Below, one piece after another: positions 12,001 to 18,000 of a stretch of DNA of 64,000 nucleotides. The stretch's first letter is position 1, and each line of letters begins with the position of its first letter. The stretch lies in contig OZ076419.1 of the NCBI GenBank assembly GCA_964187785.1, positions 35,712,001 to 35,776,000 on the forward strand, in the 5' to 3' direction. The stretch is from Amphiscolops sp. MND2022 (Eukaryota). A program made the position numbers.

Positions 12001-15000
12001 AAAAGGGATAAACATCAGCGGATAAGTTCCCGAATACAAGTCCATGATACCACTAAACAAATTTTCTAGAAGTAAATTGAAATATACAACAAAAAGCCGA
12101 TGACGGCCTACTAAAATGGACAGGAAGTGAATGAGCGTGAACAGGTCCCGATCAAACCAATTTCCGCTCAAAATGGAACAAGACCAGATAGCTTACCTGT
12201 TGATGTGTGGGGTTGGACTAGTTGCGATGATGCCCTTGTAGAAGGGACACGGGAGACCTTGGCAGCAACCAGCCGAATATAGAGGAGATGCCCACGATCC
12301 GGTGATGGCAAGAAGATTGGGAATGTAAGTACAAAGAAGACTGTTGTAACTATATCACAGACTGATGGACTCAGAGGAATGAAACAACGAGAGAACTAAA
12401 TAATGTAACAATTGATGAGTTATGAAGTTGATGACAATGCAAAAGAATTGGGAGTTCGTGGCAAACTGGATTTGATGTCAAATATTTACACAATTATGGG
12501 TATTATTCGTGGATGGAATCTGCCAGAGAAATCCAAAGAGATATCTTTCGAAAGTCCTATTTTATCGTGGACTTATTATTTTTTACAATTATCATATTAT
12601 CTCATCTATTTCCTTATTTGGATTATTGTTATTTCTTCCGCCATTTTGAAATGCGGACAGCGAAGACGACTCCTATTGGCTATCGCGGCGATGAGACGTG
12701 CGTGGCCTCAAATCTCGACCATTAACTCTTGAAAGTTTCAAGTGGATATCAAGAGCTGGTAAACACTCAAAGGTGTCATTGATGTCTCCAAGCCGCATTA
12801 GGTAAACGACTGAAGTGATGGCGTTAACGAAGCGGCTTATTGTAATCATCAAAGGATGTTTGGAAGAATTTATCAATACGGATGATTATCGGGAAGGGCA
12901 AAACCCCGGGAAAGGAATCACGAGTCTTGAAGTAAATCTCAAATGAAATCAGGAAAAGAAGTTATCATTCTCTCACTTAAAGCCTACAAGTACAGTTGGT
13001 TTTACAACTAAAATTCATAAAACTAATTTCAATCATATACAAAATTGCAAAACAACGTATAAAAACGCGATACATGGCTGATAGATACCCGCAAGACTTT
13101 TGTGAAGAACAGAGCTGTTCTATTTATCCAGCGATGAAGAGGAGGAAATGGACGCATTTAGTACAACGTTCGTGATGGACCTCCAACTATCGTCAGAAGC
13201 TGAAGAATACGACGACGAAATCATGATGTTGGCGCAGTGCGTCGAAATGCAATTATCGGCGCCTATACCAATCCCCGGGCCTTCGACACCGGAAACGGGC
13301 TGTTCTAACTTATTGGACAAGCCGTCAAGATACAGAAAGCCTAACCTGGCACACAGCCCGAGTCCCGCTCCAGACCAGTCTTTCTCCTTTTTGGGAAGGG
13401 GAAAGGGACCGATAAGGCGCAATGCTGTGATTCCATACAAGATTTGCTGTGAAACTTAGTATTGTCTACAGGAACAAATTAATTATTTTCTCCTGATTAA
13501 ATATTTTCAATGCCATCCACAAGGAGACAAAAGGCCAAGGCCAGAAAGTCAAGCGAACAAGATATGCTTTCTGATAACGATATTATGGACGTAATGTTAG
13601 GTGAAGGAAATTCCAATTCCTAGAAAGAGATATGGACAGTTTGATTAATGTCCCTGAAGGGCAGCATGACTTTCAGTCCTTCCCGAACAGAGAAAACTCA
13701 TCTCAAGAGAATGAAATTAGGGATATCGATAAAAGAAATGAGCCTGTTAGAGAAAGTAGACTAATGGAGTCGATCAACATGTTGTCTGGAGAAATGAAGG
13801 CTAGGATGTCACGTGAAATTGAGACAATGATGGACCTCATGCACACACAAGTTGGCAGCGCCATTAGCTCTGCCGTAAGTGAGAGAATTTTTCCAGAGTT
13901 ACAAAACTTGGTGGAAAATTTGCCTTTGAGTCAGCATGGCGTTGAGCCGTGCACGTCCACATCGAGGATGGAATTAGGAATGTATGGAAGAACGCAAATA
14001 CAAAATTAACAAAGAAGGACTCAAGGTCCGTTTGTGATTTAAGGGATCATGCGGGCAACGTTCCTTACATGGTAAGGGAGCTAACGAACTCCAACAGCAG
14101 GTTCCTGAATTCCTCACAGGACGAATTCACTCTCAACCAGACCTTCAGAGACAAGAATCCACGCAGGATACAACCCTGGACACAACTCTACTTGTATCTA
14201 TTTTTAGCTTGTTTGCTTTTTTTAGTAGCATGACTGTCAAAATCACGGATGTCATGCTAACTTGGGTATAAATATGCCCAAGTTGGCCCTCACAATTAAT
14301 CATCCTAGTGATACGGTTATTGTTCAGTTGCTGTTATACAAGTTGTACAAGATTTACTGTGAAACCTAGTTCATATTGTCTACAGGAATAATTTAATTAT
14401 TTTCTCCTGGTTAAGTATTTTCAATGCCCTCCACAAGGAGACAAAAAACCAAGGCCAGAAAGTCAAGAGAACTAGAGATGCTTTCTGATAACGATATTAT
14501 GGACGTAATGTTAGGTGAAGGAAATTCCAATTCTATAGAAAGAGATATGGACAGTTTGATTAATGTCCCTGAAGGGCAGCATGACTTTCAGTCCTTCCCG
14601 AACAGAGAAAACTCATCTCAAGAGAATGAAATTAGGGATATCGATAAAAGAAATGAGCCTGTTAGAGAAAGTAGACTAATGGAGTCGATCAACATGTTGT
14701 CTGGAGAAATGAATGCTAGGATGTCACGTGAAATGGAGACAATGATGGACCTCATGCACACACAAATTGGCAGCGCCATTAGCTCTGCCGTAAGTGAGAG
14801 AATCATTCCAGAGATACAAAACATGGTGGAAAATTTGCCTTTGAGTCAACATGGCGTTGAGCCGTGCACGTCCACAAACGAGGATGGAATTAGGAATGTA
14901 TGGAAGAACGCAAATACAAAATTAACAAAGAAGGACTCAAGGTCCGTTTGTGATTTAAGGGATCATGCGGGCAACGTTGCTTACATGGTGAGGGAGCTAA

Positions 15001-18000
15001 CGAACTCCAACAGCAGGTTCCTGAATTCCTCACTGGGCGAATTCACTCTCAACCAGACCTTCAGAGACAAAAATCCACGCAGGATACAACCCTGGACACA
15101 ACTCTACCTGTATCTATTTTTAGCTTGTTTGCTTTTTTTAGTAGCATGATTGTCAAAATCACGGATGTCATGCTAACTTGGGTATAAAAATGCCCAAGTT
15201 GGCCCTCACAATTAATCATCCTAGTGATACGGTTATTGTTCAGTTGCTCTTATACAAGTTGTACAAGATTTACTGTGAAACCTAGTTCATATTGTCTACA
15301 GGAACAATTTAATTATTTTCTCCTGGTTAAATATTTTCAATGCCCTCCACAAGGAGACAAAAAGCCAAGGCCAGAAAGTCAAGAGAACTAGATATGCTTT
15401 CTGATTACGGTAATATGGGCGTAATGTTAGGTGAAGGAAATTCCAATTCTATAGAAAGAGAATTGGACAGTCTGATTAATGTCCCTGAAGGGCAGCATGA
15501 CTTTCAGTCCTTCCCGAACAGAGAAAATTCATCTCAAGAGAATGAAATTAGGGATATCGATAGTAGAAATGAGCCTGTTAGAGAAATTAGACTAATGGAG
15601 TCGATAATTATGTTGTCTGGAGAAATGAATGCTAGGATGCCACGTGAAATGGAGACAACGGTGGACCTAATGCACACACAAATTGGCAAGGCCATTAGCT
15701 CTCCCATAAGTCAGAGAATCATTCCAGAGATACAAAACATGGTGGAAAAACTGCCTTTGAGTCAACATGGCGTTGAGCCGTGCACGTCCACAAACGAGGA
15801 TGCAATTAGGAATGTATGGAAGAACGCAAATACGAAATTAACAAAGAAGGACTCAAGGTCCGGTTGTGATTTAAGGGATCATGCGGGCAACGTTCCTTAC
15901 ACTTATCTTTCGAAAAATCTGCAAAAAAAATCAGGATTTTTGCAAGAGCTGTGATTCTTGTAACTTAGAGATTGCGACACCCAATTTTAATTTTATTTTC
16001 ATACCTTGAAAGAGAGATTGAATTTTATTTGCCCAGTGTTTTACATAGACCTAACACAGCATCTCTTTTAGTTGTCTCGTGAAGCACGCGTCATGCCTGA
16101 TGCATGAGAACGTTGAACAGAGATGTGGTTAACTACACGACATTCGAGAGTCGAGACATGAAATCAACAAACAGTACATGAACACAGATGAAGGAAAAGA
16201 ATGTAGTTAACCAAACCACATCATCAAACTTGAACTCAAATCTTTCAGATGCATCATATATATTTATTATTCAAATGGCTTCGCTATCTTTTAGCCATAA
16301 TCATACGTTTTCTACATGTACCTTTTAAATCAATTTTATGATACATTATATATGATACATTATATAATTAAACATGTATTGTGGGTGACACACCATCACT
16401 CATCTTCGTAACCAACGCTCAAATTAACCATTTGCTCATACGATGTTGGCAACCTTGCCACATTGCAATACTAAACGAATATACCAACTAGTGAGTCATG
16501 TAACTATAGTAACACATTTACATTATATTTCGGTGCAATATCAAGCTAAAACTCAAATTGCCCAATTTCTAATCGAGGTGCGAATTAACACCACCATAAT
16601 ACTGCAATGCGATTGGTCCATGTGGTCACGTGACAGAAATCGACATACTCAATAGCCAGTACGAGAGTGCCACCAGTAGAATTTGCGAAGGTATAACGTG
16701 CAGTTGCTAACCACATTCATATTCGTATACAACTAACCTCATCATACCAATATTTGAACCGATTTATCACAATAACCCCTTAAAACCTCATGAAACTCCA
16801 GTATTTTTCCATTATGGTTAATACTAGATCTCAGACAACTAAAACTAACCCAACAAGTATGAACGGAACAGATAGAAACAGTGATGCAGAGAGCGAAGAC
16901 AGTGTGCCTGATGTTCTAACAAAAGAACAGATGAACTAAGTTGATGATGGAGACTTACTAGATAATCGAAATGAGGGTGAACGACATACAGTAAATCAAA
17001 GGTTCTCCGAGATGAAAAAACAATTTACCGAAGTGACGAACTTAGTTTTAGTGCTAACAGAAAAGATTTCCTCTAGCAATAGAGAAGCGAACGAGCTAAA
17101 CACGGTCTCAATTGGACATGGGACCCGTGCCGACAGCACGATTGATTCAGACGTCCTCAAGTACTTCAATTCTGGAAGTCAAGTTTTCTATACTTTGGTA
17201 CGTAACGTCTGGAGTAATGTTTCGCTAGGACCACAAAACTAGAACAGTTTATTGATCAACGCGGAAGGTGCCATCACGCTGATCAAGCTGCCCGGTGAAG
17301 ATAGTTTAACCTATGGTTTTCTTCTATGAACTTTTCTCAAACTTGATTTCTCGTTCGAGAGGCTTTAAAAAGTATTGCAACTATTTTCCCTAACTGGATA
17401 GTACCCTATGCAGAATTTCTCAAGGATCCGGAAACATGATGGACATTTTTGAATTGTTTGTGATTTGCAACAGACTCAGTCGGTTTTCGTTGAAAAGTGA
17501 ATTGTAGAACAGAGAGAAACCAACAGCGAAATACAGACAGAAGAAAAAGTGGAAAGAGTGCTAATTGTGCAACTAGGTTCACACAATACAAAGCATGTTG
17601 CCCATTATAAAGCTACATTTTTACATTGCACAACGAGTTTTTGCTGATTTTTTTTTTGCTTTGCCATGTCAGTTTTCGGAAGGAATCGCAGGCTTTCCAC
17701 CTGACTACGATTGGTTACAAAGGTGAAATGTCCCCGCAAAGTAATTAAACAACATGATCGACCAGAGAGTTTCCGGAAAAGCGCGAACACACTTCAAAGT
17801 TTCATGTTATTTGCGTACTATTGATGAAGTCACAACATTGACTCTAGCCCATGCAACAAAATCTCATGTTTCTAGCTGGTTAATTAACACATAAATAATT
17901 AACGTTAAAACATTACCGCATAGTTACAATATTTGATATGTAACGAGAAGCAGTCGTCGTTGCTTCTTCGTCAATGAAGACGGAGAAACTCATGACATGG

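What the first reader, a model, noticed from the sequence alone, without database searches (positions are those of the whole stretch)
13436..15901. Tandem array of 916-bp LTR+PBS mini-units at the 3' end (TRIM-like by-product)
Seen: a 3' LTR should not be followed by a PBS, but copies 1 and 2 continue through a PBS and ~125 bp of internal DNA (reference 1563-1689), then jump via a TGT microhomology back to LTR position ~783. Copies 2 and 3 carry TATA + ATG and open 241/204-aa ORFs, while the 5' LTR copy has a stop. Inference: a microhomology deletion derivative amplified by unequal crossing-over or circle re-integration, possibly an incipient non-autonomous TRIM or an amplified Gag-fragment cassette.
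Basis: partly seen in the sequence, partly recalled or inferred. Interest (0 to 1): 0.65.

Follow-up and report, generated by a model that had tools for sequence, protein, structure and literature searches.

The report
Tandem LTR units ending a retrotransposon
The 3' end of a decayed 15-kb gypsy-like retrotransposon carries 2.7 head-to-tail copies of its long terminal repeat plus the first 127 bases behind it, which looks like an ordinary recombination by-product of a kind already described in maize and flies.

Summary
Window 780-15901 is one decayed Ty3/gypsy-like LTR retroelement flanked by a 4-of-5 target-site duplication. Its 3' LTR is replaced by 2.7 tandem units with a 916-bp period. Unit 1 lacks the first 143 nt of the LTR, unit 2 is complete, and unit 3 is an LTR only. 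Each unit is an LTR plus the next about 127 nt, which hold the primer-binding site and gag codons of about 188-229. It is not a non-coding leader: in this family gag starts inside the LTR. Both junctions join that gag point to LTR base 1 through a shared TGT. Unit 2 is a chimera, with its left part like unit 3 and its right part like unit 1 (Fisher p = 1.2e-5). This shows that one unequal crossover added the third LTR to a founding two-LTR structure. The copies decay neutrally (dN/dS 0.78-1.00). The unit has no polypurine tract and no target-site duplication of its own, and no second locus with the junction was found in the limited searches possible. The TRIM and Gag-cassette readings are therefore not supported. 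The closest known cases are LTR-UTR~LTR-derived tandem repeats (maize CRM1TR/CRM4TR) and shared-LTR tandems. Whether the founding join arose on the chromosome or during reverse transcription is unresolved. Interest is low.

The parts
775..779 (.). Left copy of the target-site duplication (CTTGT)
   Evidence: Read. It matches 15902-15906 (CTTAT) at 4 of 5 positions. The chance of 4 or more matches is 0.016. The second element in the window has a perfect 5-bp duplication.
780..1562 (+). 5' LTR (783 bp, TGT...ACA) with a TATA box. It holds the gag start and about 187 gag codons.
   Evidence: The TATA box and two further promoter motifs are conserved with element 2. The gag start is supported by tblastn of intact relatives.
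1563..1575 (+). Primer-binding site TGGTGACAGGAGC, lying inside the gag reading frame
   Evidence: It starts with TGG directly after the LTR. The same 13 bases follow the 5' LTR of element 2. It is read as YMVTGA in 6 of 6 fetched relatives. The tRNA was not identified: the window has no tRNA gene.
1001..2652 (+). gag (DUF1759-like, two CCHC knuckles in relatives); broken by 1 in-frame stop and 1 change of phase
   Evidence: tblastn of 4 intact relatives of 562-567 aa gives outer bounds 1001-2631. Pfam PF03564 scores below its cut-off. There are 2033 homologues at E<=0.001.
2653..7302 (+). pol (protease, weak dUTPase-like stretch, RT, RNase H, integrase zinc finger, core and C-terminal domain); broken
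   Evidence: Pfam hits. There are 7 domain-bearing pieces in 3 phases, with 3 changes of phase (one may be the family's natural frameshift) and 6 in-frame stops.
8050..9325 (-). Antisense gene of unknown function (about 400 aa family), tail to tail with integrase; 1 in-frame stop
   Evidence: tblastn of 150 relatives. There are 309 representative homologues at E<=0.001. It is homologous to 25351-26527 (+) in element 2.
9467..12395 (-). Further antisense ORF fragments, partly conserved with element 2
   Evidence: 30-51% aa identity to 24080-25611 (+). No Pfam hit and no significant PDB sequence hit.
13393..13408 (+). Only long purine run near the 3' end (candidate polypurine tract), 27 nt upstream of unit 1
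13436..14192 (+). Unit 1: LTR lacking its first 143 nt (13436-14069), then a degenerate PBS and gag codons. It runs to the shared TGT at 14193-14195. Its gag fragment has 3 changes of phase.
14193..15108 (+). Unit 2: complete LTR (14193-14985), then a degenerate PBS and gag codons up to the shared TGT at 15109-15111. It is a chimera of unit 3 (left) and unit 1 (right). Its gag fragment has 1 change of phase.
15109..15901 (+). Unit 3: terminal 3' LTR (793 bp), followed by flanking DNA. Its gag N-terminal 187 codons are open.
15902..15906 (.). Right copy of the target-site duplication (CTTAT)

Best explanation
One insertion of a gypsy-like element later acquired a short tandem array at its 3' LTR through chromosomal recombination.

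Shown:
- The element is bounded by a 5-bp duplication.
- Every junction is the same join of gag (127 nt behind the LTR) to LTR base 1 with a TGT overlap, so the join arose once.
- Unit 2 is a recombinant, with its left part from the terminal LTR and its right part from unit 1. One unequal crossover between the terminal LTR and unit 1 therefore turned a two-LTR structure into the present three.
- All copies decay without selection.

Inferred:
- The founding LTR-gag127~LTR join was made by an illegitimate, TGT-guided deletion in one chromatid or allele of this insertion. This is the LTR-UTR~LTR structure proposed for the maize CRM tandem repeats.
- That deleted copy was then coupled to the full-length copy by unequal exchange between the 3' LTR of one and the 5' LTR of the other. 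This keeps the flanks and the duplication.
- A later deletion removed the first 143 nt of unit 1.

The array is a by-product. It is not a mobile unit and not a working gene.
For: - Structure and junctions.
- Target-site duplication 4 of 5.
- Chimera of unit 2: left 11:0, right 10:28, p = 1.2e-5, 0 of 500 permutations.
- The two halves of unit 2 are equally far from their parents: 7 of 285 mismatches to unit 3 and 16 of 632 to unit 1, both 2.5%. The 5' LTR and unit 3 differ by 34 of 783, or 4.3%. The third unit is therefore younger than the insertion.
- Site partition: units 1+2 against 5' LTR + unit 3 is 17, against 2 and 0 for the other two partitions (binomial p = 6e-7).
- Rooting with 28 close relatives puts the changes on the stem of units 1+2, 11 columns against 2. 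The 5' LTR, unit 3 and that stem therefore radiate from about one point, with 14, 13 and 17 changes.
- dN/dS 0.78-1.00.
- A 3-nt direct repeat suitable for a one-step deletion is present.
- Literature: LTR-UTR~LTR origin and growth by non-allelic exchange (PMC3648361, passages); LTR elements commonly form shared-LTR tandems by recombination, with deletions across junctions (PMC5932611, abstract and section 6); 20 recombinant against 2 template-switch complexes in Triticeae (PMC1950507, whole text).
Against: - The join sits exactly on LTR base 1. Among TGT sites it is 1 of 15 in the LTR and 1 of 138 downstream of the gag break point. This is a mild coincidence that a replication-cycle origin would explain.
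- The founding unit looks about as old as the insertion (star-like counts). This fits an origin at insertion at least as well.
- The route needs four events, including an extra deletion at the start of unit 1.
- Unit 1 has more private changes than unit 2 (19 against 5). The shared changes of units 1+2 are confined to LTR coordinates of about 980-1379. This hints at further conversion events that I cannot resolve.
- The rest of the genome could not be searched.
Confidence: 0.5

Rival explanations
1. The founding join was made in the replication cycle that produced this insertion. Either the nascent DNA jumped, guided by the TGT, between the gag point and the U3 end (with co-packaged RNAs, as in the Sabot-Schulman template-switch complexes), or the U3 end was joined by integrase into the element's own gag. 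The later unequal crossover and the decay are the same as in the best explanation.
For: - The join is exactly at LTR base 1, which is a natural DNA end in reverse transcription.
- A flanking duplication is present. In the part where all four copies can be compared, the outer LTRs are the closest pair not linked by the later duplication: 24 of 508 differences, against 29-38 for the other such pairs. These are the two criteria of PMC1950507.
- The stem of units 1+2 starts at about the same point as the two outer LTRs.
Against: - No purine tract abuts the terminal LTR, and the 5' end has a single LTR. The simple minus-strand version would therefore copy the array to both ends, and an extra assumption is needed: a plus-strand-only event or collapse of a 5' array.
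- Under the integrase version, the 3-nt overlap would be a coincidence of 1 in 64.
- Unit 1 still needs a later deletion.
- In the one survey read, such complexes were ten times rarer than recombinational ones (PMC1950507).
Confidence: 0.33
2. The LTR-PBS-127 nt-LTR piece, or the whole array-bearing element, is a heritable subfamily structure. That would make it a TRIM-like non-autonomous derivative with copies elsewhere in the genome.
For: - The piece has two LTRs and a PBS.
- Units 2 and 3 keep the TATA box.
- The stem of units 1+2 has 17 shared changes, which could mean an older history.
Against: - There is no polypurine tract before units 2 or 3 and no duplication of its own.
- The PBS copies in the array are degenerate.
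- The junction 20-mer occurs only twice in the window, both times in the array.
- None of the 27 protein hits to the junction-spanning 77-aa ORF carries the U3-encoded tail.
- The related element 2 has a normal 3' end.
- These searches are weak. Only predicted proteins and a prokaryotic genome collection could be searched.
Confidence: 0.07
3. The units are kept because each is a promoter-driven truncated-Gag gene with a function.
For: Units 2 and 3 have a TATA box, the gag ATG and 187 open gag codons.
Against: - dN/dS is 0.78, 0.84 and 1.00 for the three pairs.
- Unit 1 has 3 changes of phase and unit 2 has 1.
- With about 5% divergence, 187 open codons can survive by chance.
Confidence: 0.04
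4. Assembly artefact: a single 3' LTR wrongly expanded.
For: Tandem repeats of about 0.9 kb are error-prone in assemblies.
Against: - The units differ from each other by 2-8%, with a structured, non-random pattern.
- The junctions differ by 1 of 20 bases.
- Unit 1 has a different left end.
Confidence: 0.03

Closest known systems
CRM1TR / CRM4TR tandem repeats of maize, derived from centromeric Ty3/gypsy elements (Sharma et al. 2013, PMC3648361; passages read)
   Same: The monomer is an LTR (or part of one) plus the adjacent start of the internal region. The junction runs from that internal point to a downstream LTR ('LTR-UTR~LTR'). Growth is by non-allelic exchange between the LTR copies.
   Different: - Here there are only 2.7 units, still attached to the parent element and its target-site duplication.
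- The LTR is complete, with the join at base 1. CRM4TR starts at base 138, and CRM1TR starts downstream of the TATA box.
- The 'UTR' part is gag coding sequence.
- A 3-nt direct repeat for a one-step join is present, whereas the authors found none in their consensus sequences. Their Additional file 9 could not be seen because supplements are closed.
- The host is not a plant as far as can be told.
Shared-LTR tandem or complex insertions (LTR-internal-LTR-internal-LTR): Sabot & Schulman 2007, PMC1950507 (whole text); Kalendar et al. 2020, PMC7215508 (passages and discussion); McGurk & Barbash 2018, PMC5932611 (abstract and section 6)
   Same: Successive units share LTRs. A flanking duplication is kept. 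The outer LTRs are close to each other. Expansion is by unequal exchange. Truncated end units are known in Cassandra arrays.
   Different: The second and third 'internal domains' are cut down to 127 nt. There is no second complete element.
TRIM (terminal-repeat retrotransposon in miniature)
   Same: Two LTRs flank a very short internal piece that starts with a PBS.
   Different: The LTRs are 783-793 bp, not about 100-250 bp (the typical size is recalled, not from a call). There is no polypurine tract, no duplication of its own, and no dispersed copies were found.
Yeast Ty1, in which the gag (TYA) start codon lies in the 5' LTR and the PBS lies within the ORF (recalled; no call, and no paper retrieved by the search)
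   Same: Here gag starts inside the LTR and the PBS is translated.
   Different: Here about 187 codons are LTR-encoded, far more than in Ty1 as I recall it, and the element is gypsy-like rather than copia-like.

Membership tests
Ty3/gypsy-like LTR retrotransposon | Direct long terminal repeats ending TG...CA | tested here: met
   780-1562 and 15109-15901, TGT...ACA, 94.6% identical.
Ty3/gypsy-like LTR retrotransposon | Short target-site duplication | tested here: met
   CTTGT / CTTAT, 4 of 5, chance 0.016. Element 2 has a perfect 5-bp duplication.
Ty3/gypsy-like LTR retrotransposon | Domain order protease - RT - RNase H - integrase | tested here: met
   Pfam hits in that order on the + strand. 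The protease and dUTPase hits are below their curated cut-offs.
Ty3/gypsy-like LTR retrotransposon | PBS next to the 5' LTR, complementary to a host tRNA 3' end | tested here: inconclusive
   A TGG-starting 13-mer follows the LTR and is identical in element 2. No tRNA gene is in the window to compare with.
Ty3/gypsy-like LTR retrotransposon | Polypurine tract abutting the 3' LTR | tested here: not met
   The only purine run of 9 or more within 250 nt upstream of unit 1 is 13393-13408, 27 nt before truncated unit 1. None lies in the 25 nt before units 2 or 3. The original tract may have been lost together with the start of unit 1.
LTR-UTR~LTR-derived tandem repeat (CRM1TR/CRM4TR type) | Monomer made of LTR sequence plus the adjoining start of the internal region, joined head to tail | tested here: met
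LTR-UTR~LTR-derived tandem repeat (CRM1TR/CRM4TR type) | Growth by exchange between LTR copies | tested here: met
   Chimeric unit 2.
LTR-UTR~LTR-derived tandem repeat (CRM1TR/CRM4TR type) | Long homogenised arrays (tens to hundreds of monomers) | tested here: not met
   There are 2.7 units, 2-8% apart. At most this is a nucleus of such an array.
Template-switch complex insertion (Sabot & Schulman) | Flanking duplication and highly similar outer LTRs | tested here: met
   Duplication 4 of 5. The outer LTRs differ by 4.3% and are the closest pair not linked by the later duplication. The same features also fit intra-locus unequal exchange.
Template-switch complex insertion (Sabot & Schulman) | Two complete internal domains | tested here: not met
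   The repeated internal part is 127 nt.
TRIM | PBS and polypurine tract in the short internal region | tested here: not met
   A PBS is present but degenerate. There is no purine tract.
TRIM | Own target-site duplication and dispersed copies | tested here: not met
   No duplication flanks 14193-15901. The junction occurs only in the array within the window. None of 27 protein hits carries the junction. The source genome was not available, so dispersal is not fully testable.
Domesticated or selected Gag fragment | Purifying selection on the ORF | tested here: not met
   dN/dS 0.78-1.00 over 187 codons in 3 pairs.

The most novel reading that the evidence does not exclude
The 916-bp unit is more than debris. 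It would be a promoter-bearing truncated-Gag cassette, born from a replication-cycle join of the U3 end to the element's own gag, that has begun to amplify as a nascent satellite. It would be transcribed from each unit and would influence the activity of its own family, as truncated Gag does for yeast Ty1 (recalled).
Probability: 0.06. Interest if true: 0.55.

Novelty: new member of a known kind. Interest (0 to 1): 0.25.

Why it matters
The locus is a clean, small example of the first steps by which an LTR element turns into a tandem repeat. The parent element and its insertion-site duplication are still attached, and the order of events can be read from the sequence: one founding join, then one unequal crossover.

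It is also a practical warning for annotation. Tools that pair LTRs could pair the wrong copies here, dating by LTR divergence would then be misled by the chimeric middle unit, and ORF finders would report Gag fragments as genes.

It does not open a new question. The family traits seen beside it are less ordinary than the array itself: gag starting deep inside the LTR, and a conserved antisense gene with no known fold.

Tried and rejected
I replaced it with single-frame stop-to-stop ORFs.
- TRF did not report the array because the period exceeds 500.
- No tRNA gene is in the window, so the PBS could not be typed.
- Junction elsewhere:
  - A protein search with the 77-aa junction-spanning ORF, 'longer' (23 hits of 46 candidates) and 'near' (4 of 4), found no hit with the U3-encoded tail.
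  - Gag alignment A4 against the prokaryotic genome collection gave 172 pattern matches and no relative.
  - The junction 20-mer gave one exact match in that collection, in a bacterial MAG contig. It has no extension beyond 20 nt, and 1.08 matches are expected by chance.
- Idea that unit 1 starts at the RNA cap site, which would point to an RNA template. The TATA box conserved with element 2 lies more than 60 nt upstream of the start of unit 1. I dropped this as unsupported.
- Idea that unit 1 comes from a different, older family member. The triplet branch counts of 14, 36 and 13 suggested it. Rooting with relatives showed that the 5' LTR and unit 3 share almost no derived states (2 columns, against 11 on the stem of units 1+2), and distances through unit 2 are close to star-like. 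I no longer claim it.
- Comparison of the 3' non-coding ends of elements 1 and 2 gave no usable similarity.
- Antisense protein:
  - Pfam: no hit for 8 proteins; among 57 members, only 4 weak single hits.
  - PDB by sequence: nothing significant.
  - Two structure models (pLDDT 65.5 and 81.4) have no fold match at E<=0.001 in PDB or BFVD.
  - Atlas leads are weak: hAT dimerisation / FAM200 at 0.90-0.91 and DUF247 at 0.89.
- Literature searches for a PBS inside gag and for antisense ORFs in animal gypsy-like elements gave nothing specific.

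
Full report
**What is there.** BLAST of the first 2.5 kb against the window shows that 780-1562 recurs three times near 13.4-15.9 kb. The matches are 923-1689 = 13436-14195, 779-1689 = 14192-15111 and 780-1562 = 15109-15901, at 92-95% identity. The start-to-start spacing is 914-916 bp. TRF missed the array because its longest period is 500. The window has no N.

Pfam places protease, RT, RNase H and integrase domains in that order on the + strand between 3.2 and 7.3 kb, with a weak DUF1759 gag hit at about 1.8-2.0 kb. 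The repeat starts with TGT and ends with ACA. A TGG-starting 13-mer follows the first copy. The five bases before 780 (CTTGT) match the five after 15901 (CTTAT) at 4 of 5 positions, with a chance of 0.016.

So 780-15901 is one gypsy-like LTR element of 15.1 kb from a single insertion. The host was not identified. The rest of the window holds more retroelement debris.

**State of the element.**
- gag (1001-2652) has 1 in-frame stop and 1 change of phase relative to four intact relatives.
- pol domains lie on 7 pieces in 3 phases, with 3 changes of phase (one may be natural) and 6 in-frame stops. These are minimum counts, because no intact pol relative was fetched.
- The gag fragments of the array have 3 (unit 1), 1 (unit 2) and 0 (unit 3) changes of phase and no stop against the close relatives.

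**The 'leader' is gag.** The protein search with the 378-aa ORF found 2033 homologues, and 97% of the query is covered by many proteins of 560-567 aa. Their N-terminus aligns to an ATG at 1001, inside the LTR. About 187 gag codons are therefore LTR-encoded, and the PBS is translated: YMVTGA in 6 of 6 fetched relatives.

A second, related element on the minus strand has LTRs at 18971-20682 and 35170-36899 and a perfect 5-bp duplication. It has the same 13-base PBS, also encodes the gag N-terminus in its LTR, and has a normal 3' end. Each array unit is therefore a promoter, a 5' UTR and the first 229 or so codons of gag.

**The junction.** In both junctions the last bases of the gag piece and the first bases of the next LTR share TGT (1687-1689 and 780-782 in the reference). 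The join lies at the very start of the LTR. The two junction 20-mers differ at one base and occur nowhere else in the window.

Unit 1 lacks the first 143 nt of the LTR. The 136 nt upstream are no more similar to that part than shuffles are. The only long purine run near the 3' end is 13393-13408, 27 nt before unit 1. No such run precedes units 2 or 3.

**History read from the copies.**
- Pairwise counts by segment show that unit 2 resembles unit 3 on the left (780-1054: 7 mismatches of 285) and unit 1 on the right (1055-1689: 16 of 632).
- Of 49 sites that tell units 1 and 3 apart, the first 11 all follow unit 3. Of the remaining 38, 28 follow unit 1 and 10 follow unit 3. The best break lies between LTR coordinates 1050 and 1067 (Fisher p = 1.2e-5; 0 of 500 permutations).
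- Unit 2 has a left part that unit 1 lacks and a right part that unit 3 lacks. One unequal crossover between the terminal LTR and unit 1 explains it. This step is shown.
- Both halves are 2.5% from their parents, while the 5' LTR and unit 3 differ by 4.3% (34 of 783, plus one 10-bp indel). The third unit is therefore younger than the insertion.
- Among four-copy sites, the partition (1,2 | 5',3) has 17 sites, against 2 and 0 for the other two. These sites lie only at LTR coordinates of about 980-1379.
- Rooting with 28 close relatives puts the changes on the stem of units 1+2: 11 columns against 2, with one mixed. With 91 more distant relatives the result is unclear: 5 against 2, the rest other or mixed.
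- The 5' LTR (14 private changes), unit 3 (13) and the stem of units 1+2 (17) thus radiate from about one point. The founding duplication is about as old as the insertion.
- Unit 1 has more private changes than unit 2 (19 against 5). I cannot explain this fully; small conversion tracts are possible.

**No sign of function or mobility.**
- dN/dS over the 187 LTR-encoded codons is 0.78, 0.84 and 1.00 for the three pairs.
- The junction-spanning 77-aa ORF found 23 proteins ('longer', 46 candidates) and 4 ('near'). All match only the gag part, and none of the 27 carries the U3-encoded tail.
- The prokaryotic genome collection has no relative of Gag. It holds one 20-nt chance match to the junction, with 1.08 expected and no extension.
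- These searches are weak. The source genome, metagenome contigs and viral contigs could not be searched.

**Mechanism.** Three things are shown: a single kind of join, one unequal crossover, and neutral decay. The founding step is inferred.

I favour (0.5) the chromosomal route described for the maize CRM repeats. A TGT-guided deletion gives LTR-gag127~LTR in one chromatid or allele. Unequal exchange with the full-length copy then gives the founding two-LTR structure, and a later deletion removes the start of unit 1 (PMC3648361, passages; PMC5932611, abstract and section 6).

The main rival (0.33) is a join made during the replication cycle of this very insertion. This follows the criteria of Sabot and Schulman, namely a flanking duplication and similar outer LTRs (PMC1950507, whole text). 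The points for the rival are the exact coincidence of the join with LTR base 1 and the age of the founding unit. But the first TGT is 1 of only 15 in the LTR, so the coincidence is mild. The single 5' LTR and the missing purine tract also need extra assumptions under the rival.

**Comparison with known cases.** The structure is a small member of a known kind: shared-LTR tandems and LTR-UTR~LTR-derived repeats. It is not a TRIM, because three defining features were tested and not met. Kalendar et al. (PMC7215508, passages and discussion) describe the same two candidate mechanisms and truncated end units for Cassandra arrays.

**Beside the finding.** Minus-strand ORFs at 8050-12395 are conserved at 30-51% aa identity with the + strand of the inverted element 2. 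They therefore form an antisense gene region that belongs to the family.
- The part at 8050-9325 matches a family of about 400 aa with 309 representative homologues.
- It has no Pfam hit and no PDB sequence hit.
- A confident all-helical model (pLDDT 81.4) has no fold match at E<=0.001 in PDB or BFVD.
- Additional ORFs in animal LTR elements are known (PMC5408684, abstract only). My two searches found no description of this antisense protein. That is not proof that none exists.

Noticed in passing
window 1001-1575; also 35170-35831 (-) and 19215-19612 (-): In this family gag starts inside the LTR. About 187 codons are LTR-encoded and the primer-binding site is translated (YMVTGA). This holds for both elements in the window and for relatives of 560-567 aa.
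   Followed up: partly
window 8050-9325 (-) and 9467-12395 (-); 24080-26527 (+): A conserved antisense gene region lies tail to tail with integrase in both elements. The family of about 400 aa has 309 representative homologues, no Pfam or PDB match, and a confident all-helical model with no fold match in PDB or BFVD.
   Followed up: partly
window 18971-36899 (-): A second, related gypsy-like element lies on the minus strand. It has 1.7-kb LTRs (88.6% identical), a perfect CAAAC duplication, the same PBS, and pol about 73% identical in DNA to element 1. About 4.8 kb of extra DNA, with short tandem repeats, lies between the matches to its integrase zinc finger and core.
   Followed up: partly
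window 3636-4520 (+): A weak dUTPase-like stretch lies between protease and RT (PF00692, E = 0.003, below the cut-off). dUTPase domains are reported in rotifer LTR elements (PMC5408684, abstract).
   Followed up: no
window 22526-22990 (+): An ORF in the antisense region of element 2 gives a marginal Pfam hit to the Soyouz module of paramyxovirus phosphoproteins (E = 7.3e-5, 22.9 bits, cut-off 22). It is probably chance.
   Followed up: no
window 42052-42582 (-); 59279-59836 (-): Fragments of other retroelements: RVT_1 (E = 6.5e-7) and a weak DUF5641 hit. The window is transposon-rich, and no host gene was recognised.
   Followed up: no
window 27022-27600, 28084-28361, 30491-30599, 37026-37122, 59872-60380: Short local tandem duplications with units of about 45-260 bp, at 77-97% identity.
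   Followed up: no
window 780-900, 35790-36130 (-): Promoter motifs are conserved between the otherwise unalignable U3 regions of the two elements: a TATA box and two upstream blocks. Units 2 and 3 carry a 10-bp indel just after the TATA box relative to the 5' LTR.
   Followed up: no
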